This document shows, in pieces, positions 14,857 through 62,980 of a stretch of 64,000 nt of DNA (position 1 is the stretch's first letter; each line of letters starts with the position of its first letter). The stretch comes from Microgenomates group bacterium (lineage in GTDB: Bacteria > Patescibacteriota > Microgenomatia > UBA12405). A program made the position numbers and the translations under genes. The stretch lies in NCBI GenBank assembly GCA_049303675.1, contig JBAQNJ010000001.1, positions 472,711-536,710 on the forward strand, in the 5' to 3' direction. Below the pieces are notes generated by a model that saw only the letters and a program-made list of their open reading frames with translations, was not told where the DNA came from and searched no databases.

Positions 14857-14889
14857 TTTATTAAAATTTTAAATTAAAAATTAAAAATT

Positions 14890-29679: not shown

Positions 29680-29704
29680 CGCTGTCTCTTGATATAATCC
29701 CTCT

Positions 29705-36444: not shown

Positions 36445-37526
36445 TCTTTTTTATTCACCAACTCATTTAGTCTTACCCATCGTTCTTTTTTAACTTTCAT
36501 TGATACATCGTTTGGCATTAGTTTGGCCGAGACAGTCCCTAGTCTGGGTGAGTATTTATTAAGATAAGCTATTTCAAATCCAACCTTTTGACACACATCC
36601 ACAGTATCTTCAAATTGGGCATCTGTTTCGCTAGGGAACCCGATAATTATATCTGTACTAAATTTTACTCCAGTCACTTTTGACTTAATATTTTTTACCA
36701 GATCCAAATAATCTTTTTTGGTATAGGCTCGATTCATCTTCTTCAATATTTCATCATTACCCGATTGAAAGGGGAGATGGAGGAGTCGATCAATATTTTT
36801 GTGTTTGGCGATCACCTCAATTAGTTCATCGGAAAAATCCCATGGATTACTACTCACAAAAGATATCTTTTGTAAATTTCTTTTGGCGACATTTTGTAGT
36901 AACTCTGGAAATCTACTTTTAATTCTCTTTTTACCCATATGGACATAACTATCTGTCTCAAAATCACTCCCATAGCTATTTACATTTTGACCAATCAAGA
37001 CTACTTCTGAGAAACCGCTCTCTACTGCCCTATCCACCTCCGCCAATATATCCGCCATAGTTCTCGATCTCTCTACTCCCCTAGCCTTGGGTACAATACA
37101 AAAAGTACAATGGTTATTACAACCGGTACTTATTGAGACTAGGGCCGCCCCTTTTTTGGCTCTAATTGGCTCCCACACCAAATATTTATCAATTCTCACC
37201 CATTCATCTACCCCTTTGATATCTTTTTGACCATACGCCCCTACCGCACAACCCGTAATTATTACTCTTGGACTAGAATTCGTAATTCGTAATTTGTAAT
37301 TTTTAATTAATTCAACCAGTCCGTAAGCTCTATTTTCAGCACTTTCCCGAACTATACAGGTATTGATTACTACTTCACTTGCATCCTGCCATTTATTGAC
37401 TACATCATATCCTTTTTCCCAATAATACGCCTTAATCCGTTCTGAATCAGCTACATTCTGGGCACAGCCAAAAGTTTTGATAAATACTTTTTTATTCGCG
37501 GTTGACATTAAAGACCATTTTACCAC
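36441..37526 (-). CDS. radical-SAM methylthiotransferase of the MiaB/RimO family (no TRAM domain)
   Basis: MTTase N-domain VFIKTFGCAQNVADSE, radical-SAM cluster motif ISTGCNNHCTFC, 361 aa. The true start is probably MSTANKK at 37508. Confidence 0.8.
   Translation of the reverse strand: MVKWSLMSTANKKVFIKTFGCAQNVADSERIKAYYWEKGYDVVNKWQDASEVVINTCIVRESAENRAYGLVELIKNYKLRITNSSPRVIITGCAVGAYGQKDIKGVDEWVRIDKYLVWEPIRAKKGAALVSISTGCNNHCTFCIVPKARGVERSRTMADILAEVDRAVESGFSEVVLIGQNVNSYGSDFETDSYVHMGKKRIKSRFPELLQNVAKRNLQKISFVSSNPWDFSDELIEVIAKHKNIDRLLHLPFQSGNDEILKKMNRAYTKKDYLDLVKNIKSKVTGVKFSTDIIIGFPSETDAQFEDTVDVCQKVGFEIAYLNKYSPRLGTVSAKLMPNDVSMKVKKERWVRLNELVNKKD
37280..37307 (+). repeat. tandem heptamer array (TCGTAAT x2, TTGTAAT, TTTTAAT) embedded antisense in the miaB-like CDS
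   Basis: Near-identical to the array upstream of fusA (60711-60738). On the coding (-) strand it is read in frame as ...LIKNYKLRITN... Confidence 0.5.
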
Positions 37527-38001
37527 CCATTCCCACTATCAATAAGCCACCTAGTCCCATCATGATCGTTGGCCAACTCGTCCCCACAGTTGGCATAGTT
37601 GCTGCCGAGCCACTCCCCACCGCCTCCCAATTCACATTTTCATTACCAATAGTCAGAGTAAATTTAATAGTTGATCCATCACTGGTAAAAGTTATTTGAT
37701 GATCACCGCCAGCCAATGTAGTTGAGGGCTGATAGTCCCAGTTACCCGATGAATCAGCGGCAATTTGTTGGACTGTCCCATCTATATCGGCATCAATATT
37801 TGCTCCTGGCAAGGCTTCACCATGGAATACTATGTTTGGGCTACTGTACCACCAGTGGGAAATCTGTTGTCCGCCCGTATCAACACTACCAATTTTAGAG
37901 AGATGAAATCCCGATGCCAGTACACTCCTACTATTTCCGATTATTAACAACCCCCAAAACAGCCACATGTATAGTTGCTTCATACAAAAAATATAGCACA
38001 A
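37492..38001 (-). CDS. hypothetical secreted protein with an N-terminal signal peptide and a C-terminal hydrophobic anchor plus charged tail
   Basis: Signal-like MKQLYMWLFWGLLIIGNSRSVLA. The C-terminus MPTVGTSWPTIMMGLGGLLIVGMGGKMVFNVNRE has the layout of a sorting signal but no canonical LPXTG. Confidence 0.45.
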   Translation of the reverse strand: MCYIFCMKQLYMWLFWGLLIIGNSRSVLASGFHLSKIGSVDTGGQQISHWWYSSPNIVFHGEALPGANIDADIDGTVQQIAADSSGNWDYQPSTTLAGGDHQITFTSDGSTIKFTLTIGNENVNWEAVGSGSAATMPTVGTSWPTIMMGLGGLLIVGMGGKMVFNVNRE

Positions 38002-38022
38002 ATTTGACAGTGTTGATTAGAG

Positions 38023-38889
38023 ATGCCATTATTATTCATGGATACAATAGACCCAAAGCCAACTGATCAAATTAGTGAAGATACTGATTTAGCCAAACAA
38101 TATCAGGAAATCCTCAACCAATATTCCCAAGAGCTCCAGCCTACTCCACCCACATCTGCCGATTCGCCACCTTCCCCATCACAACCAACGCTTACCCTCC
38201 CTCCCGAAACAATAAGTACGCCACCCCACAACTTTTTCAAGTATTTTTTCTACCTATCCTTGGCCATCTTTTTAGTAGTTTTTTCTATGGTTGTCTATTC
38301 TTTTGTTAAAACCCCCAATTCTACTATTGTTGACAATCCTCAATCTGTCCCCACTATCCCTGCCGAGCCTACAGCAGTTGTTAGTTATTGTCAGACCAAC
38401 GACAAAAATATTCCGGTCGGCGAGTCATTTCCTGCCGCAGATGGCTGCAATACATGTTCCTGCACGTCTGATTTGACCATAGTCTGTACCCAAAAAGCGT
38501 GTGAGGCCACCCCCACAGTCAAATCTACACCAACATCAAAAATTACTCCAAAATTATCCCCCACCGCAGTTTCACTCAAGACTTACACCAATTCCGTCTA
38601 CTTATACTCCTTTGAGTACCCAGCCACTTGGACCCTGGCTGTAGATCCCAATGTAGACAACCGGGAGTTTTCATTTAACTTACCAAACAACGAAGTCGTT
38701 AACGGTGTAATTTTCAAAAACACCGGTGCCAAGAATAGATCAGAAAGCACTTTTAAAGAATTTACTCTCCCCAATAACTACCAACTCCTAGTAAGTTATA
38801 TATCGGGGGATGAGAGGATGAGTATCCCAGGGAAGAGTGACTTGGCCGGATTCAAGAGTTTTCTGTCTACATTTAAATTGACAAAATAA
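38023..38889 (+). CDS. hypothetical Pro/Thr-rich membrane-anchored protein with a Cys-rich extracellular module; paralog 1 of 3 (FLSTFKL motif)
   Basis: TM helix FFYLSLAIFLVVFSMVVYSF and C-terminal ...FKSFLSTFKLTK. Confidence 0.5.
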   Translation: MPLLFMDTIDPKPTDQISEDTDLAKQYQEILNQYSQELQPTPPTSADSPPSPSQPTLTLPPETISTPPHNFFKYFFYLSLAIFLVVFSMVVYSFVKTPNSTIVDNPQSVPTIPAEPTAVVSYCQTNDKNIPVGESFPAADGCNTCSCTSDLTIVCTQKACEATPTVKSTPTSKITPKLSPTAVSLKTYTNSVYLYSFEYPATWTLAVDPNVDNREFSFNLPNNEVVNGVIFKNTGAKNRSESTFKEFTLPNNYQLLVSYISGDERMSIPGKSDLAGFKSFLSTFKLTK

Positions 38890-39824
38890 TGTCTACAGAA
38901 TCAAAGAATCATCAAATATTGATATTACTATCAATTTTATTTGTCACTATATTGGGGATAATCTATTTGTACGTCAATAGATCACCAATAGTCACTTTTA
39001 CTCCACCATCACCAGAAATCAATAAAAATAAATTATTTACAAATGGTAAATTTGAATTTACTTATCCTACTACTCTCGAGCTACTTCAGGGCCAAGATCA
39101 AATAACCTTCAAGACTCCCTTAAATAATCAGATTCAAATTCAGGAAGTGACCGACAATTCCAAAACAATTGCTGACTATTTGGCCAAGAGAGACAAGGAG
39201 TCCCAAGCCAGTTGGGAGGGGATGCCCTCAGTTGATGTCGTTTCTATGAAAAAAACAGTTATCAACGGTCTAAATTGTATCCGGCGTGAAGAGCATCTGT
39301 TGGCAGCCGACATTACTCAAACATCAACCTATTTTAAGCAAGGCGATTTATTAGTAATTATCACTTTATTACCAATACCTGGCAATACCAGAGGGGACGA
39401 CCAAGCCATCTACGATCAAATCCTCTCCACCTTCAAATTTATTGATATCACCAACACTCAAACAGTCAAAATATATTTTCACAATCCCGCCATCGATCCC
39501 AATTTCGATGATCCGAATGCCAATGATTATAAATTAGTTACTATTCCCAAAACAAATACCCCCTTAAAAGATTCACTAGACGAATTAATCAAATTATTTA
39601 TCACCGAAGATGAAAAAGCTTATGGTTCACGTGTATTAAATTTCAGGTTAAAATCGGCCATCATCAGTAGCGGCGTCGCCAAATTAGTTTTTGAGGATCC
39701 TGAGTTTTATACCAGTGGTGGATCTACTCGTGTTGGTTTACTATATTCACAAATTGAAAAAACTGCACTCCAATTTCCATCAGTTAAAAAAGTCGAAATT
39801 TCCGGAGCTACTTTTCAACCATAA
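38889..39824 (+). CDS. membrane-anchored protein with a C-terminal GerMN-like domain; paralog 2 (DQILSTFKF motif)
   Basis: N-terminal TM helix. The C-terminal LVFEDPEFYTSGGSTRVGLLYSQIEKTALQFPSVKKVEISG resembles the GerMN (spore-germination/envelope) domain. Confidence 0.5.
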   Translation: MSTESKNHQILILLSILFVTILGIIYLYVNRSPIVTFTPPSPEINKNKLFTNGKFEFTYPTTLELLQGQDQITFKTPLNNQIQIQEVTDNSKTIADYLAKRDKESQASWEGMPSVDVVSMKKTVINGLNCIRREEHLLAADITQTSTYFKQGDLLVIITLLPIPGNTRGDDQAIYDQILSTFKFIDITNTQTVKIYFHNPAIDPNFDDPNANDYKLVTIPKTNTPLKDSLDELIKLFITEDEKAYGSRVLNFRLKSAIISSGVAKLVFEDPEFYTSGGSTRVGLLYSQIEKTALQFPSVKKVEISGATFQP

Positions 39825-39825
39825 T

Positions 39826-40902
39826 ATGCAGGACAACAAGCCAAATTATCTAATACTTGCTTCAATCTCGCTTATATTTGTTTCATTAATGCTTGGTGCT
39901 TTCTATTTAGGCAGACAGACCAAATCTCTACCATCCAGTGGCTGTACCATGGAGGCGAAAGTTTGCCCTGATGGTTCTGCCGTTGGCAGGAGTGGTCCAA
40001 AATGTGAATTTGCACCGTGTCCCGAAGTTACCACCGTTCCCCTTATGGTTGATAATGACACCTCAGATTGGAAAACCTATACAAATAGTAAACTGAACTT
40101 CTCCTTTAAATATCCAGCAGACTTATCATTATCCGCCAATCAAAAGGTTCCAGATAATTACACCATAAAAAATTCTTCAACTTTTATTGCCTTCAACATT
40201 CAAAGCACATGTCTCAATACCCAGTGTCTATCAATCCAAAGTTTAGACGAAATCGCCAACAATATGCTCAGTCTTGATGTTTTGTCTTCTTTTAGAATTG
40301 GTAGTTCCAAAGGTATAAAAATAACCAATGGATTTATGGTCGAGATTCCGAATTCTAATAATTTCCTTTTATTAAATTCAGGTCAAAATACACCAATAGT
40401 CGACCAAATCCTCTCTACTTTCAAATTTACCGAAACTAAGGCAATTAAGTCAATCAAATATGACCTACCTGCAAATTGGCTATCTGTCCGTGATAATTCC
40501 CAATTATTTGAAGTTGGATACAATCCTGCTACTCAAGATATTAAAATGGACAAACAATCCATTTCGATAATTTACAAAAATTTAAACAATAACCCATATT
40601 ACTCTAACTATGCATCATCTCAACTTTTTCAGATTTTACCCTACAATAATGGTTCACGCCACGCATTTATTGAAAAACAGTTAGGTGAAACGATTAATAG
40701 TGGCAACAAGTTTCCAGATTATTTCGAATCAGACATAAATATTGACGGTAAAAGTTGCCTCGTACTGCATGGAATATCTATCTCTCAATTTTATCCAATT
40801 TGGGGTATGTGTGCCATCAATTCCCAGCAAGCATTGCTTTTTAATTCATTTAATTATGCAGATTTATCCCCACATCTTAGTTCATTAAAGTTTACTCCCT
40901 AA
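39826..40902 (+). CDS. hypothetical membrane-anchored Cys-containing protein; paralog 3 (DQILSTFKF motif)
   Basis: Start placed at the ATG at 39826, directly after the upstream stop. TM helix LILASISLIFVSLMLGAFYL; CPDGSAVGRSGPKCEFAPC module. Confidence 0.5.
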   Translation: MQDNKPNYLILASISLIFVSLMLGAFYLGRQTKSLPSSGCTMEAKVCPDGSAVGRSGPKCEFAPCPEVTTVPLMVDNDTSDWKTYTNSKLNFSFKYPADLSLSANQKVPDNYTIKNSSTFIAFNIQSTCLNTQCLSIQSLDEIANNMLSLDVLSSFRIGSSKGIKITNGFMVEIPNSNNFLLLNSGQNTPIVDQILSTFKFTETKAIKSIKYDLPANWLSVRDNSQLFEVGYNPATQDIKMDKQSISIIYKNLNNNPYYSNYASSQLFQILPYNNGSRHAFIEKQLGETINSGNKFPDYFESDINIDGKSCLVLHGISISQFYPIWGMCAINSQQALLFNSFNYADLSPHLSSLKFTP

Positions 40903-40928
40903 TCATCTTCTTGCTCTAGGTAGCAAAT

Positions 40929-40977
40929 GCGTATATAATCGACTATTCGCGAGCGGTTGGAACATAACTCGCTTTTT
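40929..40977 (+). promoter_or_regulatory. TATAAT promoter-like motif plus hairpin/T-run in the rpoB upstream region
   Basis: gTATATAAT at 40930-40937, a short hairpin gcgag...ctcgc, then TTTTT (40973-40977). Could be a leader attenuator or the terminator of the upstream gene. Confidence 0.3.
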
Positions 40978-41001
40978 AATTAGTAATTAACCAATTTTCT
41001 G

Positions 41002-44340: not shown

Positions 44341-44342
44341 CT

Positions 44343-48095: not shown

Positions 48096-48504
48096 TCAAC
48101 TAATCAGAAAAGGCCGCAAGGTCCGTAGTATCAAGCTAAAGGCTGGTGCTCTACGCAACAACTTCAACAGTATCAAAAATCGTACTGTCAAAAGTTTCAA
48201 TCCCTTCAAAAAAGGGGTGGTTACTGTGGTCAAGACCATGACTCCCAAAAAGCCTCATTCTGCTCTTCGTAAAGTGGCTAGGATCAAGCTTAGTAACCAC
48301 ACCACGGTTACTGCTTATATCCCTGGGATTGGCCACAATTTGGCCGAGCATGGTATCGTCGCTATCCGCGGCGGACGTGTCCGAGATTTACCCGGTATTC
48401 GTTATCATGTTCTCCGTGGTAAGTTTGATGCCTCAGGTGTTACAGGCCGACTCCAGTCTCGCTCCAAATATGGCGCCAAGCGTCCCGCCAAAACCGCCGC
48501 TTAA
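48082..48504 (+). CDS. rpsL: 30S ribosomal protein S12
   Basis: [13 protein letters not shown]...KSFNPFKKG...[16 protein letters not shown]...[23 protein letters not shown]. The start at 48082 overlaps the rpoC stop by 14 nt. Confidence 0.9.
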
Positions 48505-48545
48505 CTTTATTAACTTTTAACTTTATAAACTTTACAAACTAAATT
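48502..48545 (+). repeat. AACTTT-type short tandem repeats filling the rpsL-rpsG spacer
   Basis: TAACTTTAT TAACTTT TAACTTTATA AACTTTACA AACTAAATT, with a period of about 7-9 nt, ending at the rpsG ATG. Confidence 0.4.
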
Positions 48546-49028: not shown

Positions 49029-49063
49029 TGGAAACTATCCTATAGTTGTGATATACTATCACT

Positions 49064-49495: not shown

Positions 49496-49553
49496 TATTT
49501 CTTTGTTTACTTTTTAAGTTTAGTATTTTTCTTGGTTGTGCTAACATTAATCA

Positions 49554-50960
49554 ATGTCATTGTTTAGTAAACCACGCGTCGTTATCTGGCCCAGGGTCAA
49601 TAGTCTTAGTCTTTATTTTGACAGATCCGAAAACAATATTTTTTCCCTCGATGTTTGTTTGTGGAAACCACTTTCCGAGTCCGACACTGCCGCCTTCAAA
49701 GGGCTGATCAAAGAGCAGGGGATCGACACCGCCACGGTTCTCGTCCCCGATGATGTTGTTTTCACCAAATCATTTATCTACGATTCCGAAATCACAGAAA
49801 TCGACAAAAACGAAGTCATTGGCCTAGCCAAGAGTTTTATTACCTTCAAAATTAGCCCCGAATCAATCGACTACAATTTAGTCCAAGCGTCCGGCAAAAC
49901 TATTATTCAGGCTCGTATTTTCGATCAGTCAAAATTCTCAGTTCTCCAAACAAATCTCAGCCTTTTAGGAATCAACTTATCCTTTGAGTCTGTCTCTCAA
50001 TCTATTGCCAATCTCATTTCTCACAATTTTACCGATCAGTATTTTCTCATTTATCCCCACGATACCAACGAATATTTATTGATGCTGGCTGCTGGCAGCT
50101 CAGTTTATCTGACCAATATTATCAAGGGCAAGGATTTAGAAATCCAAAAAATAATCAATTACTCCAAGCTATATTTTCCCGACATTGTTACCAAAATATT
50201 TACCCCCTCGGATATCACCGCCGAGATTATTGCCACTACCAAACTCGACAAATTACCCTATAACCAGTCAGTCCTTGCCACCGATTTCAAAAAAACTTCC
50301 AACCTGCCTCTGCCAGTTACCGGAATCCTTGTCTCAAAACCAGTTCCACCTGCTATAATCAATTCTATAGATACAAATTCACCAACCCCTACTATGGAAA
50401 ACAAAAAAAATATTCTCCCTTTTATTGCCGTCTTTGTCATTACCGCCGCTCTCGCCTCAATTATTATCTATTTTGTCCTCAACAAAAATACTTCTGCCCC
50501 GGAAACACCAGTAGTTACCGATATTACTCCCACAATTGAAGTTCCCACTTCTACCCCAGTTCCTACTTTAGCTGAAATTAGCAAAAAGATAAAACTTCAG
50601 GTCCTCAATGCCACCGAAATCAATGGTCAGGCCGCGGTTCTCAAGGAAAAATTAGTCAATCTAGGATTTACGAGTGTGACAGTTGGTAACAGTAAAGACA
50701 AATTAACTGAGAACAAACTCCAAATCAAAGCCTCAATCACTGGCGCTGATTCATATTTCACCCAACAATTGGCTGGATTCTTTGATGTCGTCCCTACCAT
50801 GGATTTACCCGAGACATCCACCTATGATGCCGTCTTTTCTATTGGCGTCAAATTGGTTGCCCTTACCGCCGAGGCTAGTCCTACCGCCAAGGTGACTACT
50901 GCTGCCACCTCTGCTACTCCCACCGCCAAGGCGAGTGGTACCGCCACCCCAACCGAATAA
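49554..50960 (+). CDS. membrane protein with a PilM-like N-domain, a TM helix and a C-terminal LytR_C (LCP-associated) domain
   Basis: TM helix ILPFIAVFVITAALASIIIYFV. The C-terminal LQVLNATEINGQAAVLKEKLVNLGFTSVTVGNS....ASITGADSYFTQQLAGFF matches the LytR C-terminal domain pattern. Confidence 0.45.
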   Translation: MSLFSKPRVVIWPRVNSLSLYFDRSENNIFSLDVCLWKPLSESDTAAFKGLIKEQGIDTATVLVPDDVVFTKSFIYDSEITEIDKNEVIGLAKSFITFKISPESIDYNLVQASGKTIIQARIFDQSKFSVLQTNLSLLGINLSFESVSQSIANLISHNFTDQYFLIYPHDTNEYLLMLAAGSSVYLTNIIKGKDLEIQKIINYSKLYFPDIVTKIFTPSDITAEIIATTKLDKLPYNQSVLATDFKKTSNLPLPVTGILVSKPVPPAIINSIDTNSPTPTMENKKNILPFIAVFVITAALASIIIYFVLNKNTSAPETPVVTDITPTIEVPTSTPVPTLAEISKKIKLQVLNATEINGQAAVLKEKLVNLGFTSVTVGNSKDKLTENKLQIKASITGADSYFTQQLAGFFDVVPTMDLPETSTYDAVFSIGVKLVALTAEASPTAKVTTAATSATPTAKASGTATPTE

Positions 50961-50964
50961 AATT

Positions 50965-53663: not shown

Positions 53664-53846
53664 TATCTTTGCTAACTCTTTCCACGACCATACACCGGTA
53701 ATGCCAGCAGGCACTTCATCATTTTTATTGTATTCCCAAGAGAATAAATATAAGTGAGGGATCTTACCAATTAACAGATACTCGCCAACTTATGAATACT
53801 ATCTATAGCTCCGGTAACTGGATTCACGTTCATGGATAACTCTGTT

Positions 53847-54287: not shown

Positions 54288-54559
54288 TTGATCTTAGTGA
54301 ATTTGATATTATTGGGGTCACCGATTATATGGACGCACTCCTTACTGAAATATCAAGTAATTTAAAAGTTCAAACCGACTCATGTCCAAAGAGACTTAAC
54401 TGTTATCGCGGCAATCGAACCATAAAAGTCTCCAATTCATTTATCGCTAGATTCAAGGAATTTCATTCACAAGACTATCAGATTTACGAAATGGTCAAAA
54501 AACAAAAAGTATATCGAGGTAATAGCTACAGTAGTAAATTAACAGCAAAAATGATATAA
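54203..54559 (+). CDS. hypothetical protein (118 aa; overlaps the antisense pseudogene, so doubtful)
   Basis: ORF only. Confidence 0.25.
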   Translation: MCLTQNTAFAEYALLPELKNYQSYTLDSFDLSEFDIIGVTDYMDALLTEISSNLKVQTDSCPKRLNCYRGNRTIKVSNSFIARFKEFHSQDYQIYEMVKKQKVYRGNSYSSKLTAKMI

Positions 54560-54572
54560 TATAGGCCAAAAT

Positions 54573-56090
54573 ATGGCCCTGGATCAACAACACTTTTATC
54601 CTCTCGTCCCAACAGCTGAACAGTCAGAAAATCTGATTAGATCGGGAGATTGGGAGATGCAAGTTATCCTCCAAGATCTACAAGCCCCTCCCATCGATAG
54701 AGTCACCTCACTCGAGGCTTATAACTCATATATAAAATCCAAAATTACTTTTGATCCAGCTAATGGACCCAAGATAATTGAGGGCTATATGTCAAATGAT
54801 CCTCTGGGTGATGGTAATCAGGGGGTAGTGGTTATGGGAAACAGTCTCAAATTAGTCGATCAAGGTTGGTCGCTGATTGCCTCTACCCAATTAACTGATA
54901 ATTCCCTTATTGTTTCCATTATTGAGCAGCCAAGAGGCACTATCGATATGAAGGGCTGGACCGCCGGAGTTGTTCGCGGATTTAATGAACCGCACATTGA
55001 TGAAGCAGATATGGCCGCACTTGAGGCATTCCAAGAAACTGGATTCCAACACGTTGATAAATTTATCCGTGAGTTGGGCATGCCTACCAATATGATGCCC
55101 ACATTTATGCTATCGCGCCTCCGCGGCGGCGCCAACTCATTCTCTATCGAATTTCCTTCAGAAATATTAGAATTAATTGATGTCCCCAGAAAACGTTGGC
55201 ATATTCGACAGGGAATATTCCAAACTGAAGCACCTCAAGCCGAAGTCGAGAAGGTCACCGCCAGTGTCTTTACCGACATTATGGAAGTTTTATCACAACG
55301 AATTTGGTCGGGTACAGTAGATGGATATAGTCTGATTTCTTCTGCCAGAATTCTAACTAGTAAAAGCAATCTTGATTTTTCTGGATATTGGCAACGTTTG
55401 GTCAGTCCCAAATCCCTTAGTCAAACTCACCACAACTATCCCATCACTCCACTAACACTCGATCGCTATCCAGAATTAACCGGAGGAACTCCAACTTGGC
55501 AAATTACTCTCAACAATCAATTGATTGTTCCTCGTCAGATGTGGTTCCATAATATTCGTACCGGTGCTGAAATTGTCCATGGTATCAAGCCCGAGGCAAA
55601 CATCTATGATGGCTTTGCTATTCATACCGACGAGATGGTAGTTATGGCCACAGTTGAAATTAATGGTCAGTTGTATGTCGGCGGACAATTTGGCTCAGTC
55701 GACCATATTGCCGAGCCAAATATTTTTCATTCACCATCTAGTACCATCAATCTAGAAAATTATTCAGATCAAGAGGCAGAAAAACTATTTTATGAGAATC
55801 TCGGATGCACCAGTGCCGAAAGTGATGGGACAGTATTGGCCCTTGCCCAGTCCGGTGGTCCCATCAATCCCAATTCTGCTCATTTTACGGGAACACTCAA
55901 AACAGTTTTTGTTCAAATAAATCCCGAAAAAGTAATTCAGATAACACCCGACAAATATGTTATCCCCAACTCAAATCCAAATTTTGTTTTTGTACCAATT
56001 AAAGAAGCTATTATGAATACTTCCCATGGCCCCACCGCTCTGGCCGCTGCCGTCCTCTGTGGTTCTGCCAAAATTATTTCTCTAAGATAA
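54573..56090 (+). CDS. hypothetical soluble protein (505 aa) with no recognisable domain
   Basis: Long ORF with good coding composition, no TM helix and no known motif. Confidence 0.5.
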   Translation: MALDQQHFYPLVPTAEQSENLIRSGDWEMQVILQDLQAPPIDRVTSLEAYNSYIKSKITFDPANGPKIIEGYMSNDPLGDGNQGVVVMGNSLKLVDQGWSLIASTQLTDNSLIVSIIEQPRGTIDMKGWTAGVVRGFNEPHIDEADMAALEAFQETGFQHVDKFIRELGMPTNMMPTFMLSRLRGGANSFSIEFPSEILELIDVPRKRWHIRQGIFQTEAPQAEVEKVTASVFTDIMEVLSQRIWSGTVDGYSLISSARILTSKSNLDFSGYWQRLVSPKSLSQTHHNYPITPLTLDRYPELTGGTPTWQITLNNQLIVPRQMWFHNIRTGAEIVHGIKPEANIYDGFAIHTDEMVVMATVEINGQLYVGGQFGSVDHIAEPNIFHSPSSTINLENYSDQEAEKLFYENLGCTSAESDGTVLALAQSGGPINPNSAHFTGTLKTVFVQINPEKVIQITPDKYVIPNSNPNFVFVPIKEAIMNTSHGPTALAAAVLCGSAKIISLR

Positions 56091-56100
56091 CCCTAGCCAT

Positions 56101-56607
56101 CTATTTTTCGGCTTCGATTATTTCTTCCATCGTCATCGTCTTAAACTTAGCATTGGCCGCGTCTTCAAACCTTACGCCCACATCAGCCCCTATTGGTCTA
56201 TTTATCGAATTTACATTCCATGTCACGTTTGGATATCTCGAGACAAATTCTGTCAAACTTATGTTGATTACAAACTCTGCATGTTCTAAGCCATTGTTAT
56301 ATTTGTCGCCTTCAGCCGGAGCCATTACTTCAAAATATTTTATTTTATACTGATGGTACTCCAGTGGTTGATCTAGTTCGTACATGTCCACAGGTCTGTT
56401 CTTAAAAATAACCTGTGTTACTCTTTTTCCAAAAGATCTCATATAAGCAGACACCTCCCTATAATCATTATCAGTCTCAGTTCTACAGGCGATGTGGTCA
56501 ATCTTAAATTGGCTGACATCAATTTTTACGCGACTTAAATTAATAAATACCTTATCTAGAAAATTAACATAGTCGTATTTAAAGTTAATCATAAATTTAT
56601 TATTCAT
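56101..56607 (-). CDS. hypothetical protein, possibly VOC/YecM-like metal-binding fold
   Basis: KIDHIACRTE ... LEHAEFVINI resemble the paired His/Glu metal-ligand blocks of YecM/VOC proteins. Confidence 0.35.
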   Translation of the reverse strand: MNNKFMINFKYDYVNFLDKVFINLSRVKIDVSQFKIDHIACRTETDNDYREVSAYMRSFGKRVTQVIFKNRPVDMYELDQPLEYHQYKIKYFEVMAPAEGDKYNNGLEHAEFVINISLTEFVSRYPNVTWNVNSINRPIGADVGVRFEDAANAKFKTMTMEEIIEAEK

Positions 56608-57845
56608 TAATCAGATGACATGATTCTCGCCACCCTCTCCCCCTCCCTGACCGCAAAATTAGTCCCCCGATCTTCCGGATATATCATCGCAAAATTCGCC
56701 TGATATATTTTGTTTTTTACTAACTCGTAACTGCTAACTCCTAACTTATAACTTGTTGTTACCAAGTGTTGTGCATTTCTAAATTTCCACACCCAACTAT
56801 CCTCGATAAGTTTTTTATTAAATTTGGGAAATATTTTTAGTAAATAATCAAAAAATATTTTTTTAATTTCGGCTTCACTTTTATCCATCAACCCACCCTC
56901 ATTGGGAATATATGTGCCCATGTAATACACCTGTTTGCCACCATAATATTTTTTATCAACCATATTGGTATGTTGAATAAAGCAGAGAATAGGGGAGTCA
57001 ATATCATTTATATTATGCCAATAATATTTACTCAAGCTCTGGGTACTAGTAAACACCACATTTATCGCCCCCAAATATTCCACCTCTTTACTCGGACCAG
57101 TGTACAGTATTTTGTCAAAATCTTTTAATTCTTTCATCTCTATTTTTTTATTTAAAATAATTTTCCCATTTATTTTTTTGGCCAATGCGTCGGCAATTAT
57201 TCTAAATCCCCCCTCAAAATATCCGAGTTTACTCGAATTTCCTCGAGTATGAATCCGCGCCCACAGCCACGCCATACTGATTTCTTTGTATTTATCTCCA
57301 AATTTTCCATGCAATAATGGTTGCCAAATTACTTCATAGGCTCTCCTCCCGCACCACTTTTTCATCCACTCTGTTGCCAACTCATTTTCATATTTATGCC
57401 AGTTATTATCATATTGTAGCCAAATTTTGACCAGTCCTAGTCTAACTTTATCCCCAATTCCCAAAGGTTTGAATTTTAGTAAATCCGTAGCCCCCATAAA
57501 TGGATACATTTTGTGGTCAAAATAAAGTGCTGTTTTCTCATCGTGCCATTTTAATTTATCAATTAGTCCCAATTCTTTGGTCAATTCTATAATATATTTA
57601 TCAGTCGAAAAAATATGATGATAGGCCTTTTCTAGGTTGGTGTTGGCAATTTTAAACCCACCTGCCAGACCTCCAATATCAGCAGATTTTTCAAAAATAG
57701 TTATCTCATGTCCCTTTTGTGACAATCTATATCCAGCCACCAATCCCGTCATGCCGGCACCTATAATCGCTATCTTTAACTTCCCCTCTTTCGTCAAAGA
57801 GGGGGTTGGGGGTGATTTTTTCTTCCCCACAATTGCAATTTTCAT
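56607..57845 (-). CDS. FAD-dependent oxidoreductase, UDP-galactopyranose-mutase (Glf)-like / amine-oxidase-like
   Basis: N-terminal dinucleotide-binding KIAIIGAGMTGLVAGYRL...IFEKSADIGG, HHIFSTDKYIIE (Glf-like HIFHTNDKYIW), and ILYTGP. The first codons MKIAIVGKKK duplicate the KIAIIG motif. Confidence 0.55.
   Translation of the reverse strand: MKIAIVGKKKSPPTPSLTKEGKLKIAIIGAGMTGLVAGYRLSQKGHEITIFEKSADIGGLAGGFKIANTNLEKAYHHIFSTDKYIIELTKELGLIDKLKWHDEKTALYFDHKMYPFMGATDLLKFKPLGIGDKVRLGLVKIWLQYDNNWHKYENELATEWMKKWCGRRAYEVIWQPLLHGKFGDKYKEISMAWLWARIHTRGNSSKLGYFEGGFRIIADALAKKINGKIILNKKIEMKELKDFDKILYTGPSKEVEYLGAINVVFTSTQSLSKYYWHNINDIDSPILCFIQHTNMVDKKYYGGKQVYYMGTYIPNEGGLMDKSEAEIKKIFFDYLLKIFPKFNKKLIEDSWVWKFRNAQHLVTTSYKLGVSSYELVKNKIYQANFAMIYPEDRGTNFAVREGERVARIMSSD
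56721..56755 (+). repeat. tandem heptamer array (TAACTCG TAACTGC TAACTCC TAACTTA TAACTTG) embedded antisense in the flavoprotein CDS
   Basis: Five contiguous TAACTNN units. On the coding strand they are read in frame as ...VTTSYKLGVSSYELVKN... Confidence 0.5.
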
Positions 57846-57865
57846 AGATTATTATATCCTAGCCT

Positions 57866-58111
57866 ATGGATCCCAAAAAACCTAACATCATATCTGCTGA
57901 AAACAAAGAAATTTTAATCAAAGAGTTAGTTGATTATTTTTCCGCCGAGCACGATATTAATGTTGGGATTATTGCTGCTGGTGAGATATTGGACAAAATA
58001 TTAGAAAAAGTTGATAAATCAATCTACAATCAAGCTATCGAAGACGCCCAAAAAATAATCCGTCAGGGCCATGAAAGCATTATTGTCAATGTCGGTGCCT
58101 TATCTAAGTAA
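57866..58111 (+). CDS. hypothetical small protein (81 aa)
   Basis: ORF only. Confidence 0.4.
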   Translation: MDPKKPNIISAENKEILIKELVDYFSAEHDINVGIIAAGEILDKILEKVDKSIYNQAIEDAQKIIRQGHESIIVNVGALSK

Positions 58112-58140
58112 ATTTATATTTCAAGGTATAGAATTAATTT

Positions 58141-60132
58141 ATGGGGGTGTTAACTGGCCTAAAAATAATAGATTTGACCAAAGTATTTAGCGGACCTTTG
58201 ACCACTCGTCATTTTGCTGATTTAGGTGCCAGGGTAATCAAAATAGAACCGGCCTCGGGTGACGATAGCCGTCAGTTCCCTCCACTCATCGGCAACTGGA
58301 GTGGATATTTTGAGGTCCTTAATCGTGGCAAAGAGTCGCTCGTTCTCGATCTGCGACAGTCTAGTGATCTAAATTCGTTTTACAAATTGTGCACCGATGC
58401 CGACGTAGTCGTGGAAAATTTTAGTCCAAATGTCAAAAAACACCTAAAGATAGACTACACATACGTCAAGAAATATAACCCCAAAATAATTTATGCCTCT
58501 ATCAGTGGCATTAGTCAAAACGTAAATCGTAAATACTATGATGTCCTGGCTCAGGCCGAGTCTGGACTAATGTCCTTAAACGGTATTCATGGCGATATGA
58601 AAAACGCCACCTCAATTGTTGATGCTTTTACTGGCGTAAAGTTGGCTTTTGCCATATCCACAGCACTTTATACACGCCAAAAAACTGGTCGCGGCTGTCA
58701 GATAGACGTCTCCATGCTGGGTTCTGCTTTCGACCTTCTCGAGCAAAACTTAATTGCCGCCTCGATTTCTCATCAAAACCCATCCAAAACTGGCAATCAC
58801 GACAACGCCATTGCTCCATTTGGCATTTTTCAGTCTGGGGACAAATCAGTGGTCTTGGCCATAGGTAACGCTGTTCAGTGGCAGGCATTTTCTAAATTTA
58901 TTCTCAAAGTAAATCCCCAATTGAACCTCGAGTTCTTTGCTACCAATCATTTACGTCTTCAAAATTTCTCCCAACTAGAAAAGTTTATTAATGAAGTCTT
59001 TTCTGATTACCCTGCCGCCAAGTTAATCAAAATCTTGCAGAAGCTGGGTATACCCTGTGCTCTAGTAAACACCATGTCAGATGTCTTGGCCGATTCAAAA
59101 AATTATCAGCAGAATTTATTGCTCAAATTAAATCACCCTACAGCGGGTAAAATAGTTGTCCCGACTGGCGGGATTACTTTTTCAAATCAGCCAGTTCTGA
59201 GTTACCTTCCATCTCCCACGCTCGATACTACAATAAAATTTTTACCCTATGACTCTTCACATGAAAACGGGGTAGTTGATCTCCTCAACCTCTGTTTTCC
59301 CAGTAAAAATATTTCCCCAAGTTCATTTGTGTGGAAACACTTTGACAAATTCTTTAATAGCCAGAGCATTGCCTATGTCGCCATTTGCGGGCAGACTATT
59401 TGTTCTTTTGTCTGTTTTACTCCAATTGAAATACAGGCAGCCAATCAGTCAGTACACCACTTCTATTCTTGCGCTGTTCAGGCAACTCATCCTAATTTTC
59501 GCCGCCTAGGTTTGGTCGGTCAACTCACCAAAATGATTGAATCCCAATTGGGGAATGATGTTAAATACTTAGGTTTTTCCAATGAGAGTGGTGTCCAAAT
59601 TGACAAGCACTCTCGTCAAATAAATTATCAAATAGTTGGCCAGTTTGCTCGTCAGTATGTTCCCTGCATTCCTCAGATACAATCAAAAATATTTTTTACC
59701 AAAATCAAGACTTTATCCTCAGATAAGTGGCCGCACCAACATATTCATATTCACAAGTCAGCCGATTATCTCGACTGGCGCTATCTTCGCAATCCCAAAA
59801 ATTCTTATGTCTACTATTCTATAAATAATTCAGATCAGGTAGTTGGCTATCTGACTTGTACTCAATCAAAATATCGGGTCGAGGTGGTTGATATCATTTT
59901 CGATGATATTCAAATTAGGTTAAAAGATATTATGAGAGCCTTTTCAAATTATGCCTTTCATCAGGGAAAATTAATTACTACCTACACCTACCTTCCCAAC
60001 ATCCTCTGGCGTGACGCATTTCCTCTGATATCCTTTACCAAAAGATTAGGAATTTACCTGACCATAAAATCAAAGTCCTTAGAATTTCTCAACCATACCC
60101 GTTGGTTTCTCCAGTCTGGAGACATCCAATAA
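58141..60132 (+). CDS. family III CoA-transferase (CaiB/BaiF-like) fused to a C-terminal GNAT/FemAB-like acyltransferase region
   Basis: N-terminal LKIIDLTKVFSGPLTTRHFADLGARVIKIEP...GDDSR...RGKES..LDL is the CaiB/BaiF signature. The C-terminal ~290 aa contains a GNAT motif A-like HPNFRRLGLVGQL. Confidence 0.55.
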   Translation: MGVLTGLKIIDLTKVFSGPLTTRHFADLGARVIKIEPASGDDSRQFPPLIGNWSGYFEVLNRGKESLVLDLRQSSDLNSFYKLCTDADVVVENFSPNVKKHLKIDYTYVKKYNPKIIYASISGISQNVNRKYYDVLAQAESGLMSLNGIHGDMKNATSIVDAFTGVKLAFAISTALYTRQKTGRGCQIDVSMLGSAFDLLEQNLIAASISHQNPSKTGNHDNAIAPFGIFQSGDKSVVLAIGNAVQWQAFSKFILKVNPQLNLEFFATNHLRLQNFSQLEKFINEVFSDYPAAKLIKILQKLGIPCALVNTMSDVLADSKNYQQNLLLKLNHPTAGKIVVPTGGITFSNQPVLSYLPSPTLDTTIKFLPYDSSHENGVVDLLNLCFPSKNISPSSFVWKHFDKFFNSQSIAYVAICGQTICSFVCFTPIEIQAANQSVHHFYSCAVQATHPNFRRLGLVGQLTKMIESQLGNDVKYLGFSNESGVQIDKHSRQINYQIVGQFARQYVPCIPQIQSKIFFTKIKTLSSDKWPHQHIHIHKSADYLDWRYLRNPKNSYVYYSINNSDQVVGYLTCTQSKYRVEVVDIIFDDIQIRLKDIMRAFSNYAFHQGKLITTYTYLPNILWRDAFPLISFTKRLGIYLTIKSKSLEFLNHTRWFLQSGDIQ

Positions 60133-60197
60133 ATACTTGTCTTATAATATATTTTTGCTATAATAATACCCATTAATACCATTCTATCTATATATTT

Positions 60198-60620
60198 ATG
60201 GCAGTTGACATCGCCCGCGTCTCCGATTTTGGATTATTAACTATTCATGGCGCCACTGTAGATTATGCCCATGATACTCCAAATACGCGGTTTCAGTTTT
60301 TTCAAATTCTCAAACTTATAGAACGTCCTGAGACTATAACTCTAAAATCATTTATTGATACAAATACATTTATTCTAGAAATAGACTCGGGTACAGACAA
60401 GTTTATCGAAAATGCAGTCACAAACTATCCTATTCGGACAGGTGAGTTGTCCCACAAATTATTTATTCGTGATATGCAACCTGATTACATCGTTAGGTTT
60501 AACTCACGCCAAACTCTACCTGTCGTCGAAATTCACTTTACTCCTTTTGATAGTTTTCAGACCCGCAGGATACCCTATCTTTTGGCCAACGAAAATACCA
60601 TCCCCATTCCCCTTCGATAG
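60198..60620 (+). CDS. hypothetical protein (140 aa)
   Basis: ORF only. Confidence 0.4.
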   Translation: MAVDIARVSDFGLLTIHGATVDYAHDTPNTRFQFFQILKLIERPETITLKSFIDTNTFILEIDSGTDKFIENAVTNYPIRTGELSHKLFIRDMQPDYIVRFNSRQTLPVVEIHFTPFDSFQTRRIPYLLANENTIPIPLR

Positions 60621-60655
60621 TTTAGGGTTTTTGTGTTATCATATTTCACGTAAAA

Positions 60656-60687
60656 CCTGCCTGCCGGCAGGCAGGGCAGCATTTTTT
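60656..60687 (+). terminator. intrinsic terminator (perfect GC palindrome plus T-run)
   Basis: cctgcctgcc/ggcaggcagg, a 20-nt perfect palindrome at 60656-60675, followed by gcagcATTTTTT. Confidence 0.6.
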
Positions 60688-60703
60688 ATTATTTATTATT
60701 TAT

Positions 60704-60745
60704 TCATAAATCGTAATTCGTAATTCATAATTCGTAATTAATTTT
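60704..60745 (+). repeat. tandem heptamer array (TCATAAA TCGTAAT TCGTAAT TCATAAT TCGTAAT TAATTTT), ending 2 nt before the fusA ATG
   Basis: Homologous to the array inside the miaB-like gene (37273-37313). Preceded by TTATTTA repeats at 60688-60703. Confidence 0.55.
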
Positions 60746-62958: not shown

Positions 62959-62980
62959 ATTACTGTGATACAATCCCCAA

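What the first reader, a model, noticed from the sequence alone, without database searches (positions are those of the whole stretch)
37273..60745. A second heptamer family (ATTCGTA/TCGTAAT) occurs before fusA and as a near-identical copy inside the antisense miaB-like coding sequence
60704-60745 (TCATAAA TCGTAAT TCGTAAT TCATAAT TCGTAAT TAATTTT, then ctATG of fusA) and 37273-37313 (CTAGAAT TCGTAAT TCGTAAT TTGTAAT TTTTAAT TAATTCA) are clearly homologous ~40-nt elements in the same (+) orientation. The second lies inside the minus-strand MTTase gene, where it is translated in frame as ELIKNYKLRITNSS, a linker between the MTTase N-domain and the radical-SAM core. A non-coding-looking 7-nt repeat, which cannot preserve frame by itself, sitting in frame inside a conserved enzyme gene is unusual. 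It may reflect in-frame insertion of a mini-element or a DNA-level element tolerated in a linker. Both this array and the TAACTNN array at 56721-56755 encode YKL when read on the minus strand.
Basis: seen in the sequence. Interest (0 to 1): 0.65.

Follow-up and report, generated by a model that had tools for sequence, protein, structure and literature searches.

The report
Heptamer-repeat leader cassette inside a gene
A 35-base element made of five 7-base repeats normally sits just before start codons in this tiny uncultured bacterium, and one copy lies backwards inside a tRNA-modifying enzyme gene, where it is read as a few extra amino acids.

Summary
Window 37276-37310 and 60707-60741 are two copies of a 35-nt cassette, (TAATTCG)2(TAATTNN)2TAATTAA, sharing 29/35 bases. 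A third copy lies about 8 kb before the window start, 5 nt upstream of a UvrD-like helicase gene.

The genome is a Shapirobacteria-like CPR bacterium. It uses almost no Shine-Dalgarno sites, and period 7 is the only tandem period in excess. Forward arrays (TAAYTNN, a stop codon in all three frames) end 0-14 nt before start codons of fusA, rpsG, infB, ftsK and others.

The closest known things are the TAACTGA direct repeats of Beggiatoaceae, cyanobacteria and Bacteroidetes, and cyanobacterial STRR. Their function is unproven.

The MTTase copy is antisense to its host gene. Its stop-free complement encodes the end of helix 61-80 and the loop before the Cys-bearing strand. Orthologs have a length-variable linker there, often encoded by other heptamer arrays. 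One 61%-identical ortholog carries the same array.

I found no length polymorphism, frameshifted alleles, TIRs or TSDs.

Unexpected extras:
- Period-7 arrays are about 11-fold enriched in this MTTase gene across CPR loci. They also occur in miaA.
- The array is the most DNA-conserved stretch between two diverged orthologs.

Verdict: a new variant of a known, unexplained repeat class.

The parts
37276..37310 (+). Cassette copy inside the MTTase gene, antisense to it: GAATTCG TAATTCG TAATTTG TAATTTT TAATTAA. Its complement is translated as (E)LIKNYKLRITN(S).
36441..37526 (-). MiaB/RimO-family radical-SAM methylthiotransferase, 361 aa by ORF (355 aa as annotated). It has UPF0004 and Radical_SAM domains and no TRAM domain. 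The array encodes residues about 72-83.
60707..60741 (+). Cassette copy in the fusA 5' leader: TAAATCG TAATTCG TAATTCA TAATTCG TAATTAA. It ends 6 nt before the ATG, with no Shine-Dalgarno motif between.
60681..60704 (+). ATTATTT x3.4 array directly upstream of the cassette. A similar ATTATTT-rich 5' part precedes the cassettes of the sister genome.
60656..60675 (.). Palindromic GC hairpin CCTGCCTGCCGGCAGGCAGG followed by a T-run. A hairpin plus T-run is present at this position in four related genomes, with different stem sequences.
60614..60642 (+). Promoter-like site TCGATA-17-TATCAT with a TG before the second hexamer. The 'tgnTATCATatttcac' string is conserved upstream of fusA in relatives.
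   Evidence: consensus match only
60748..62853 (+). fusA (EF-G), 701 aa
56721..56754 (+). TAACTCG TAACTGC TAACTCC TAACTTA TAACTT array, antisense inside the amine-oxidase-like ORF 56607-57845(-). It is translated as TTSYKLGVSSYELV. The sister genome has (AAAATTC)3 at the orthologous loop.
28443..28476 (+). Forward array ACTGTTC ACTGTTA ACTATTA ACTGATA ACTGAT, containing TAACTGA TAACTGA. It ends 2 nt before the ATG of an HTH_25 gene. Relatives lack it and have 2-10 nt spacers there.
26263..26286 (+). Forward array ACTGTTC x2 plus variants, 13 nt before the ftsK ATG
48501..48540 (+). (T)TAACTTTA-type repeat leader filling the rpsL-rpsG spacer. Near-identical leaders precede rplP and rpsS in the same genome.
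14864..14890 (+). AAATTTT/AAATTAA period-7 array abutting the infB ATG (14890)

Best explanation
The two elements are copies of a dispersed ~35-nt cassette built from five heptamers, (TAATTCG)2(TAATTNN)2TAATTAA. It belongs to the broader TAAYTNN heptamer-direct-repeat class that pervades this Shapirobacteria-like CPR genome.

The cassette's normal place is on the sense strand, a few nucleotides upstream of a start codon (fusA here, and a UvrD-like helicase gene outside the window).

Proposed function of the leader copies (inferred, not shown): in an organism that lacks Shine-Dalgarno sites, such arrays give an A/U-rich leader that cannot fold on itself and that places a TAA in all three frames. 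This would stop upstream ribosomes and leave the start codon accessible for SD-independent initiation, possibly through a single-strand RNA-binding protein such as S1 or a Csp.

The MTTase copy has the same chromosomal orientation but lies antisense to its host gene. The complement (CGAATTA)n has no stop codon in any frame, and the total length keeps the reading frame. It is therefore translated as about 12 residues that lengthen a surface helix and loop before the strand carrying the third cluster cysteine.

That site tolerates almost any length and sequence. It has carried heptamer arrays for a long time, and their units turn over, either by slippage or templated conversion or by exchange with other copies in the genome. 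The gene-internal copy is most likely a tolerated by-product with no function of its own.

Shown: family membership, positions, orientation, frame compatibility, ortholog variability, lack of SD.
Inferred: the leader function, the mode of spread and the neutrality of the internal copy.
For: Family:
- Three copies share five units, the same first, second and fifth units, and 29-32/35 pairwise identity.
- The sister genome (EF-G 94% identical) has (TAATTCT/TAATTCC)x5 at the same place before fusA.
- It also has near-identical ~60-nt cassettes in the L22-S3 and S3-L16 spacers, where the window genome or L170 have 3-6 nt.

Class behaviour:
- Period 7 is the only enriched period.
- 42 of 97 arrays in 2.04 Mb of CPR loci are intergenic although only 8% of the DNA is non-coding. 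Many lie 0-14 nt from a start codon.
- Only 6 of 54 window genes have even a weak SD-like motif, and none of the array-preceded genes does.
- Leader arrays fold no better than shuffles (z +0.4 to +1.9).
- All of this matches published TAACTGA repeats (PMC4679880): forward copies a few nt before start codons without RBS, including fusA and internal r-protein operon sites, and reverse copies inside ORFs.

Tolerated site:
- Linker length between AENR..G and TGC ranges from 23 to 49 aa among orthologs.
- AlphaFold places the segment at the end of helix 61-80 and in loop 81-86.
- In B. uniformis MiaB (7MJZ/7MJV) the alignment of the N-terminal domain stops at this point.
- Other orthologs encode the linker with TAATTTC, CAGTTAC/GAGTTAC, AAACTTC, TCAGATG or AAAATTC arrays.
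- A second minus-strand gene (amine-oxidase-like) shows the same thing at an orthologous loop in two genomes.
Against: - No experiment or transcript data bear on the leader function. The z-scores for lack of structure are individually weak.
- Array-bearing leaders are not conserved in all close relatives (L169 and L170 lack the fusA array), so they are dispensable.
- 'Neutral by-product' fits poorly with two results. The array is the single most conserved 27-nt window between the window gene and L101 (92.6% vs 66.7% overall; third positions 89% vs 45%). Period-7 arrays are about 11-fold enriched in this MTTase gene relative to other coding DNA.
- No mechanism of copying is identified: no TIR, TSD or transposase.
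- Only about 84 kb of the 998-kb genome could be inspected.
Confidence: 0.55

Rival explanations
1. Independent local slippage. Each array arose in place by replication slippage of a short local seed. The resemblance between the fusA and MTTase arrays reflects a shared mutational or compositional attractor, not common descent or copying.
For: - The unit AATTACG already exists 20 nt downstream, in the conserved codons ATT ACG of the IITGC strand.
- In L004 the unit AGTTAC likewise matches its GTT ACA codons.
- The site-3 'array' NTCAGATx4 replaces IRSKIPDVRF with no length change, so it looks like in-situ homogenisation.
- Units differ between orthologs, as expected from turnover.
- No TIR or TSD is present.
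Against: - Three copies have the same number of units, the same ordered variants and the same TAATTAA terminal unit.
- In the sister genome, whole ~60-nt cassettes including a non-repeat 5' part occur at spacers that are 3-6 nt long in relatives.
- Slippage alone does not explain why only period 7 occurs.
Confidence: 0.2
2. The gene-internal array is itself functional at the nucleic-acid level. It could be a binding site or sensor on the MTTase mRNA or its antisense, for example autoregulation linked to decoding of UNN codons that depends on ms2i6A37. Alternatively it could supply a useful basic peptide for tRNA binding in an enzyme that lacks the TRAM domain.
For: - The array is the most DNA-conserved window between the window gene and L101, including third positions.
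- NTCAGATx4 is identical in L002, L104 and L121 despite 56-76% protein identity and variable flanks.
- Period-7 arrays run at 16.2 vs 1.4 per 100 kb in MTTase vs other coding DNA (p = 2.5e-16). The excess holds in loci at or below 50% identity (p = 1.8e-8).
- Arrays also occur in miaA (5 arrays in 11.7 kb), mnmA, argS and L4.
- The enzyme lacks TRAM.
- Many encoded peptides are Lys-rich.
Against: - Closer relatives (75-80% identical) have unrelated units or no array at the site, so no specific sequence is required.
- No start codon, promoter-like or terminator-like site accompanies the plus-strand copy.
- Arrays are counted in loci chosen for containing this gene, and miaA is its neighbour, so sampling is biased. 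Arrays within one gene are not independent events.
Confidence: 0.12
3. Contingency locus. The heptamer array is a slippage-prone switch. Gain or loss of one unit (7 nt) frameshifts the MTTase and turns it off or on (phase variation).
For: - A 7-nt unit changes the frame.
- Heptanucleotide repeats drive phase variation in neuO and HMW1A (papers listed).
- Arrays that keep length while becoming periodic could be scars of off/on cycles.
Against: - Only 2 perfect units are present.
- Two independent assemblies of the source are 100% identical over 12.4 kb, including the fusA-leader and amine-oxidase arrays. The MTTase array lies outside that stretch.
- The P0016 cluster, seen on more than 50 contigs from many samples, shows no length variant at either array.
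- None of 162 loci has the MTTase split across frames.
Confidence: 0.03
4. Chance resemblance of AT-rich low-complexity sequence.
For: The genome is 40% G+C, and a 15-nt exact repeat is not significant by itself in 64 kb.
Against: - Shuffle controls exclude it.
- Codon-shuffled MTTase genes give 0 arrays against 30 observed, and all other periods give 0-3.
- A third matching copy exists.
Confidence: 0.02

Closest known systems
TAACTGA heptamer direct repeats of marine Beggiatoaceae, cyanobacteria and Bacteroidetes (MacGregor 2015, PMC4679880)
   Same: - Tandem 7-nt units in sets of 2-6.
- Mostly intergenic, in forward orientation, ending a few nt before start codons that lack an RBS.
- Found before fusA and inside ribosomal-protein operons.
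- Forward copies carry stops in all three frames.
- Reverse copies are translated inside ORFs, at the periphery of proteins.
- The exact unit TAACTGA occurs twice at window 28462-28475, ending 3 nt before an ATG.
   Different: - The host is a CPR/Patescibacteria bacterium. My four literature searches that bear on this found no report from this group.
- Many units are used (TAATTCG, TAACTNN, ACTGTTC and others), whereas BOGUAY uses essentially one.
- The TAATTCG copies form a fixed five-unit cassette with a conserved terminal unit.
- Reverse copies sit in internal loops of a conserved enzyme, recurrently across orthologs.
STRR (short tandemly repeated repetitive) heptamers of heterocystous cyanobacteria, and the heptamer repeats near start codons in Nostoc PCC 7120 (bioRxiv 10.1101/2022.06.06.494920)
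   Same: - Heptanucleotide tandem arrays, dispersed, mostly non-coding and near start codons or promoters.
- Function unresolved.
- STRR arrays are reported (my recollection, not checked in a paper) inside a variable helix of the cyanobacterial RNase P RNA gene, which would be another array tolerated inside a functional gene.
   Different: - Different phylum and different units (CCCCAGT, TTGGTCA and CAACAGT, recalled from memory; TTTTGAA and GACYAAT from the preprint).
- No report known to me of recurrent in-frame arrays at orthologous loops of one enzyme.
Rickettsia palindromic elements (RPE): selfish repeats inserted in frame in protein-coding genes (recalled from memory; not checked in a paper here)
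   Same: A non-coding-type repeat family is found both between genes and in frame inside conserved genes, at surface positions compatible with the fold.
   Different: - RPEs are 100-150-bp palindromic elements, whereas this is a 35-nt direct-repeat array with no palindrome.
- The GC hairpin elements noticed in passing in the same linker resemble RPEs more closely.
Simple-sequence contingency loci (phase variation by heptanucleotide repeats, e.g. neuO, HMW1A)
   Same: A 7-nt unit within or next to a coding sequence.
   Different: Those arrays are long, perfect and polymorphic. Here they are short, degenerate and invariant in the data available.

Membership tests
TAACTGA-type heptamer direct repeats (MacGregor 2015) | Head-to-tail repeats of a 7-nt unit, 2-6 copies per set, sometimes split by related heptamers | tested here: met
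   Both elements have 5 units.
TAACTGA-type heptamer direct repeats (MacGregor 2015) | The unit is TAACTGA | tested here: not met
   The unit is TAATTCG, matching TAACTGA at 4 of 7 positions. Exact TAACTGAx2 occurs elsewhere in the window (28462-28475).
TAACTGA-type heptamer direct repeats (MacGregor 2015) | Predominantly intergenic, in forward orientation, ending within a few nt of a start codon that lacks an RBS | tested here: met
   The fusA copy ends 6 nt before the ATG and the uvrD-like copy 5 nt before. Other arrays end 0-14 nt before a start. SD-like motifs occur in only 6 of 54 genes.
TAACTGA-type heptamer direct repeats (MacGregor 2015) | The forward strand has stops in all three frames and the reverse strand is open, so in-ORF copies are in reverse orientation | tested here: met
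   (TAATTCG)3 has TAA in each frame, while (CGAATTA)n has none. Both in-ORF window arrays are reverse relative to their host gene.
Cyanobacterial STRR | Heptamer units CCCCAGT / TTGGTCA / CAACAGT in heterocystous cyanobacteria | tested here: not met
   The host is a Microgenomates-group CPR MAG. The units differ, though ACTGTTC/ACTGTTA at 26263 and 28443 differ by one base from the complement of CAACAGT.
MITE / RPE-like mobile insertion | Terminal inverted repeats and a target-site duplication | tested here: not met
   No shared flanks among the three copies. The only candidate is a 7-bp GGACTGG/CTAGTCC inverted repeat around the MTTase copy, partly made of conserved codons.
MITE / RPE-like mobile insertion | Multiple dispersed near-identical copies, with filled and empty sites between relatives | tested here: met
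   Three copies lie within about 84 kb. Sister-genome cassettes occupy the L22-S3 and S3-L16 spacers, which are 3-6 nt in relatives. Short linkers in L086, L094 and L097 serve as empty sites.
Phase-variable simple-sequence contingency locus | Unit-number polymorphism between strains or reads, giving frameshifted alleles | tested here: not met
   Searches show no variants. Read-level data were not available.
MiaB/RimO methylthiotransferase (host gene) | N-terminal UPF0004 domain with three Cys, a radical-SAM CxxxCxxC core and a C-terminal TRAM domain | tested here: inconclusive
   UPF0004 and Radical_SAM are present, the Cys columns are invariant, and the best PDB match is MiaB 7MJZ (E = 3.7e-60). 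No TRAM domain was detected.

The most novel reading that the evidence does not exclude
Heptamer arrays in CPR bacteria are written and kept uniform by an active, sequence-directed DNA-level process (concerted evolution among dispersed cassettes). On this reading the copies inside the tRNA anticodon-loop modification genes (miaB-like MTTase, miaA, mnmA) are not passengers. They would be maintained at the nucleotide level as regulatory sites that couple expression of these enzymes to the same factor or decoding state that acts on the 5'-leader arrays of translation genes.
Probability: 0.12. Interest if true: 0.8.

Novelty: new variant of a known kind. Interest (0 to 1): 0.52.

Why it matters
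Heptanucleotide direct repeats near start codons have been known since 1990 (STRR) and 2015 (TAACTGA), and their mechanism is still unproven.

Finding the same syndrome in a minimal, SD-less CPR genome links it to Shine-Dalgarno-independent initiation. Cyanobacteria and Bacteroidetes are, to my knowledge, also phyla of low SD use; I did not check this here. The CPR genome also offers a very small system in which to test the link.

The fixed five-unit cassette, the genome-specific seventh base and the filled and empty sites between sister genomes suggest copying between loci. That makes the origin of these repeats testable by comparative genomics.

Two results show that a DNA-level repeat process can shape enzyme loops, and they need an explanation:
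- Strictly period-7 arrays are enriched in frame in the miaB-like and miaA genes.
- The array is conserved beyond the catalytic motifs between diverged orthologs.

Tried and rejected
- **Cyanobacterial origin.** My first guess, from the STRR-like repeats, was wrong. The proteins and the contig name identify a Microgenomates/Shapirobacteria MAG.
- **Metagenome scan with the MTTase alignment.** Only L006-L008 were useful.
- **Minority-strand hypothesis.** The idea was that arrays arise only in forward orientation on the majority strand, so only minority-strand genes can host them. It fits the window and its sister genome, but fails in distant CPR loci, where the MTTase is on the majority strand and still carries arrays.
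- **Antisense promoter or terminator at the MTTase copy.** None was found.
- **Phase variation.** No frameshifted genes, no length variants and identical assemblies.
- **Anticodon-loop mimicry.** About half the units can be rotated to YUNNAAA, but intergenic arrays fit equally well and there are no stems. I judged this a by-product of A/T-rich composition (hand inspection).
- **Antisense intrinsic terminators in hairpin-bearing linkers.** The T-runs start 6-13 nt after the stems, so they are not canonical. Left open.
- **Rfam.** No family matched in the window, and there are no tRNA genes.
- **P0138 locus.** No DNA could be fetched for it.

Full report
**1. Observation**

TRF calls both as period-7 arrays:
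- 37277-37308: 4.6 copies, 92% matches.
- 60702-60739: 5.4 copies, consensus ATTCGTA.

Put in register, each is a 35-nt block of five units:

| Copy | Coordinates | Sequence |
|---|---|---|
| MTTase | 37276-37310 | GAATTCG TAATTCG TAATTTG TAATTTT TAATTAA |
| fusA leader | 60707-60741 | TAAATCG TAATTCG TAATTCA TAATTCG TAATTAA |

They share 29/35 bases.

The fusA ATG is at 60748, and the protein has all EF-G domains. The first block lies inside the minus-strand ORF 36441-37526 and is read in frame as ELIKNYKLRITNSS.

Chance is excluded:
- Period 7 is the only tandem period in excess over dinucleotide shuffles.
- TAAYTNNx3 gives 14 hits against 0.22 expected.

**2. Organism and context**

The MTTase is 100% identical to a protein of a 'Microgenomates group bacterium' MAG. 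The window maps to GCA_049287145.1, contig JBAQFH010000001.1 (998,417 bp). Its relatives are Candidatus Shapirobacteria.

About 90% of genes are on the plus strand.

The genome hardly uses Shine-Dalgarno sites. Only 6 of 54 genes have even a weak SD-like motif. Many genes have TATAAT-like boxes 6-7 nt before the ATG. For one gene, TGnTATAAT-N6-7-ATG is conserved in about 28 relatives, which implies leaderless mRNAs.

**3. A third copy and the family**

Fetching 10 kb beyond the window start revealed TAATTCG TAATTCG TAATTGA TAATTAG TAATTAA. It lies 5 nt upstream of the ATG of a UvrD-like helicase gene (L171 858-892).

All three copies are on the same chromosomal strand. All have five units with the same first, second and last units, and they share 29-32/35 bases pairwise. 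This is a small dispersed family, not three arbitrary arrays.

**4. The wider class in this genome**

Other period-7 arrays on the plus strand belong to the same TAAYTNN pattern, or to related T-rich units. Those that lie upstream of a gene end 0-14 nt before its start codon:

| Array start | Location |
|---|---|
| 28443 (contains TAACTGA TAACTGA) | upstream of an HTH gene |
| 26263 | upstream of ftsK |
| 14864 | upstream of infB |
| 48501 | rpsL-rpsG spacer, before rpsG |
| 56721 | inside the amine-oxidase-like gene, antisense |

In 2.04 Mb of CPR loci I found 97 arrays. 43% are intergenic, although only 8% of that DNA is non-coding.

Leader arrays are predicted to be unstructured (MFE -0.6 to -7.0 kcal/mol; z +0.4 to +1.9 against shuffles).

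**5. Comparison with a sister genome**

The sister genome is JACPHO010000001.1 (EF-G 94% identical, MTTase 76%).

- *fusA leader.* It carries TAATTCT TAATTCC TAATTCT TAATTCC TAATTTC ending 4 nt before the ATG. The array position is conserved and the seventh base differs. Two further relatives (L169, L170) have no array there. All four share a promoter-like TGnTATCAT, then a hairpin of variable sequence, then a T-run.
- *Ribosomal-protein operon.* The sister genome has near-identical ~60-nt cassettes, aaattattttattaaaa + (ATTCCTA)n + attaat. They fill the L22-S3 and S3-L16 spacers. At those spacers the window genome or L170 have 3-6 nt, or a different AACTTTA-type leader. These filled and empty sites are the best evidence that cassettes are copied between loci.
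- *Amine-oxidase-like gene.* An orthologous loop is encoded by TAACTNN-complement in the window (TTSYKLGVSSYELV) and by (AAAATTC)3 in the sister genome (RKFKIQNSKIKTN). In L169 and L170 it is encoded by non-repetitive DNA.

**6. The MTTase linker in orthologs**

In an alignment of 39 orthologs, the stretch between AENRAYGL and (I/V)VTGC is the length-variable part of the N-terminal domain. Across about 80 genome loci it ranges from 23 to 49 residues.

The DNA encoding it is itself period-7 repetitive in several lineages, with different units:

| Locus | Units |
|---|---|
| L002, L003, L089 | TAATTTC x4 |
| L004 | CAGTTAC / GAGTTAC |
| L001 | AAACTTC x2 plus a GC hairpin |
| L106 | TCAGATG-type |
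| L087 | AAAATTC / AAAAGTT |
| L115 | AAAGTCA / AAAGTTA |

Short forms such as NIDGKKKV (L086) serve as empty sites.

One ortholog that is only 61% identical in the best tblastn segment (64.6% over the full pairwise alignment) is L101, Shapirobacteria CG06_land_8_20_14_3_00_40_12. It has AATTACG AATTACA AATTACG AATTACG AATTACA, encoding ITNYKLRITNYK. This is the same unit, the same frame and the same place.

Between the window gene and L101:
- Overall nucleotide identity is 66.7%, and third-position identity is 45%.
- The best 27-nt window in the whole gene is the array, at 92.6% identity with 89% at third positions.

**7. Structure**

AlphaFold2 on the alignment (mean pLDDT 78) predicts helix 61-80, loop 81-86 and strand 87-91. 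The array therefore encodes the last turns of a helix and the loop before the strand that carries the TGC cysteine. This is inside the UPF0004 domain (Pfam 13-101), not between domains.

The best solved relative is B. uniformis MiaB (7MJZ/7MJV). Its N-terminal-domain alignment ends exactly at this segment.

**8. Tests for instability**

- No locus has the MTTase broken across reading frames.
- The P0016 protein cluster, seen on more than 50 contigs from many samples, has no length variant at either of its two arrays.
- An independent Logan assembly is identical to the source over 12.4 kb, which includes the fusA-leader and amine-oxidase arrays but not the MTTase array.

Phase variation is therefore unsupported.

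**9. Unexpected results**

*Period-7 specificity inside the MTTase gene.* Inside MTTase genes of 162 loci plus the window, arrays scoring at least 11 number 30 at period 7. Every other period from 3 to 15 gives 0-3, and codon-shuffled genes give 0.

*Hot sites.* The arrays cluster at three places: nt ~190-250, ~565-660 and ~760-950.

*Enrichment.*
- Density is 16.2 per 100 kb in the MTTase gene against 1.4 per 100 kb in other coding DNA (binomial p = 2.5e-16).
- In loci at or below 50% identity to the window protein it is 14.5 against 2.1 (p = 1.8e-8).

*Other hosts in the flanks*:
- miaA: 5 arrays in 11.7 kb.
- mnmA, argS and the L4 N-terminus.
- Prepilin leader regions.

*Caveats.* Loci were chosen because they contain this gene. 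miaA is its neighbour. Arrays within one gene are not independent events.

*Site 3.* The array ATC AGA TCT CAG ATT TCA GAT GTC AGA has the same length as the non-repetitive IRSKIPDVRF of other orthologs. It is identical in L002, L104 and L121 although their flanks vary. That looks like in-place homogenisation, not insertion.

**10. What is known**

The closest description is MacGregor 2015 (PMC4679880). [quoted passage not shown]
- 2-6 copies per set.
- Mostly forward and ending a few nt upstream of start codons without an RBS.
- Found before fusA and inside r-protein operons.
- Reverse copies inside ORFs are translated as LSVISYQ.
- Also found in cyanobacteria and Bacteroidetes.
- Function proposed to be post-transcriptional (S1, Csp or CsrA binding).

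Heptamer repeats near start codons are also reported in Nostoc (bioRxiv 10.1101/2022.06.06.494920).

Four literature searches bear on this. The two aimed at CPR/Patescibacteria found no report of such repeats in that group.

**11. Interpretation**

The finding is a CPR instance of this repeat class. The specific twists are:
- A fixed five-unit cassette.
- Genome-specific unit variants.
- Recurrent in-frame reverse arrays in loops of a conserved enzyme.

I commit to the following reading.

*Leader copies.* They act as unstructured, stop-rich, A/U-rich translation-initiation leaders in an SD-less genome. This is inferred from position, composition and the literature analogy.

*MTTase copy.* It is a tolerated antisense member of the family at a permissive, long-occupied site. 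This is inferred from ortholog variability and the structure model.

The conservation between the window gene and L101, and the enrichment in this gene, are not explained by that reading. They keep a functional alternative alive.

Noticed in passing
L007 1895-1969, L116 10181-10255, L109 10187-10261, L104/L121 10187-10264, L096 10214-10285, L098 9007-9105, L114 4206-4301, L001 3193-3252; window 57783-57804 and 14827-14847: - A family of GC-rich hairpin elements (e.g. GCCCTTCGGGC plus CCTCCCTTGACAGGGAGG) is encoded in frame in the same MTTase linker of many 55-61%-identical orthologs. The peptides look like NKTLRPSGTSLDRAA or NRNPPTLRASSLEKGGLKK.
- A homologous hairpin forms a 22-aa N-terminal extension of the window's amine-oxidase-like protein. 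Three relatives lack that extension.
- Another copy is intergenic, upstream of infB.
- 5 of 11 consensus pairs show compensatory changes.
- The pattern is reminiscent of Rickettsia palindromic elements.
   Followed up: partly
162 CPR loci (L001-L165); arrays listed: - Strictly period-7 arrays are about 11-fold enriched inside the MiaB-like MTTase gene, at three hot sites.
- They also occur in miaA (L010, L012, L154), mnmA (L164), argS (L147) and L4 (L157).
- This may be a link to RNA-binding or tRNA-modification proteins, or a sampling bias.
   Followed up: partly
L002 3809-3835, L101 10764-10790, L104 10872-10898, L121 10905-10931: - NTCAGATx4 (ATC AGA TCT CAG ATT TCA GAT GTC AGA, peptide IRSQISDVR) is identical or differs by one base across orthologs of 56-76% protein identity.
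- The flanking synonymous sites vary.
- It has the same length as the non-repetitive sequence in other orthologs.
   Followed up: partly
whole window; e.g. 29689-29704, 54557-54572, 62966-62980: - There is almost no Shine-Dalgarno use (6 of 54 genes).
- Many genes have TATAAT-like boxes 6-7 nt before the ATG.
- TGnTATAAT-N6-7-ATG is conserved in about 28 relatives for the gene at 29705. This implies widespread leaderless mRNAs.
   Followed up: partly
window 60614-60700; L168, L169, L170 about 130 nt upstream of fusA: The fusA leader architecture is conserved: promoter-like TGnTATCAT + 'atttcac', then a hairpin whose sequence differs in each genome, then a T-run. It could be an attenuator or a regulatory leader. 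Rfam has no match.
   Followed up: no
window about 40935-41001; upstream of rpoB in more than 30 loci: A conserved sequence 'ttcggcgagcggttggaacataactcgtc' follows a TATAAT box upstream of rpoB in most Shapirobacteria loci. It looks like an unannotated leader element. Rfam has no match.
   Followed up: no
window 48501-48545; L166 19032-19086 and 17619-17657; L168 4191-4231 and 19961-20006: A second leader type, (T)TAACTTTA repeats ending in aactttataaactttacaaactaaatt-ATG, precedes rpsG, rplP and rpsS. It is shared with the sister genome. The unit equals the T7 gene 10 'epsilon' enhancer sequence TTAACTTTA (from memory).
   Followed up: partly
window 36441-37526: - The MiaB/RimO-type MTTase of this clade is only about 350 aa and has no TRAM domain.
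- It overlaps the convergent PIN-domain gene (35935-36444) by 4 nt, which leaves no room for a terminator.
   Followed up: no
window 37268-37318 (minus strand): The MTTase array is bracketed by a 7-bp inverted repeat, GGACUGG...CUAGUCC. The sense RNA folds with z = -2.26 (6 of 200 shuffles fold as well). The left arm consists of conserved YGL codons, so this may be coincidence.
   Followed up: no
whole window: GC skew is negative in 31 of 32 2-kb bins (down to -0.29) on the strand that carries about 90% of the genes. A paper on strand composition disparity in a Microgenomates genome (PMC7143001) surfaced in a search but I did not read it.
   Followed up: no
window 50874-50948: A 39-nt tandem repeat (1.9 copies, 77% matches) lies in a coding region rich in Ala, Thr and Pro codons.
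   Followed up: no
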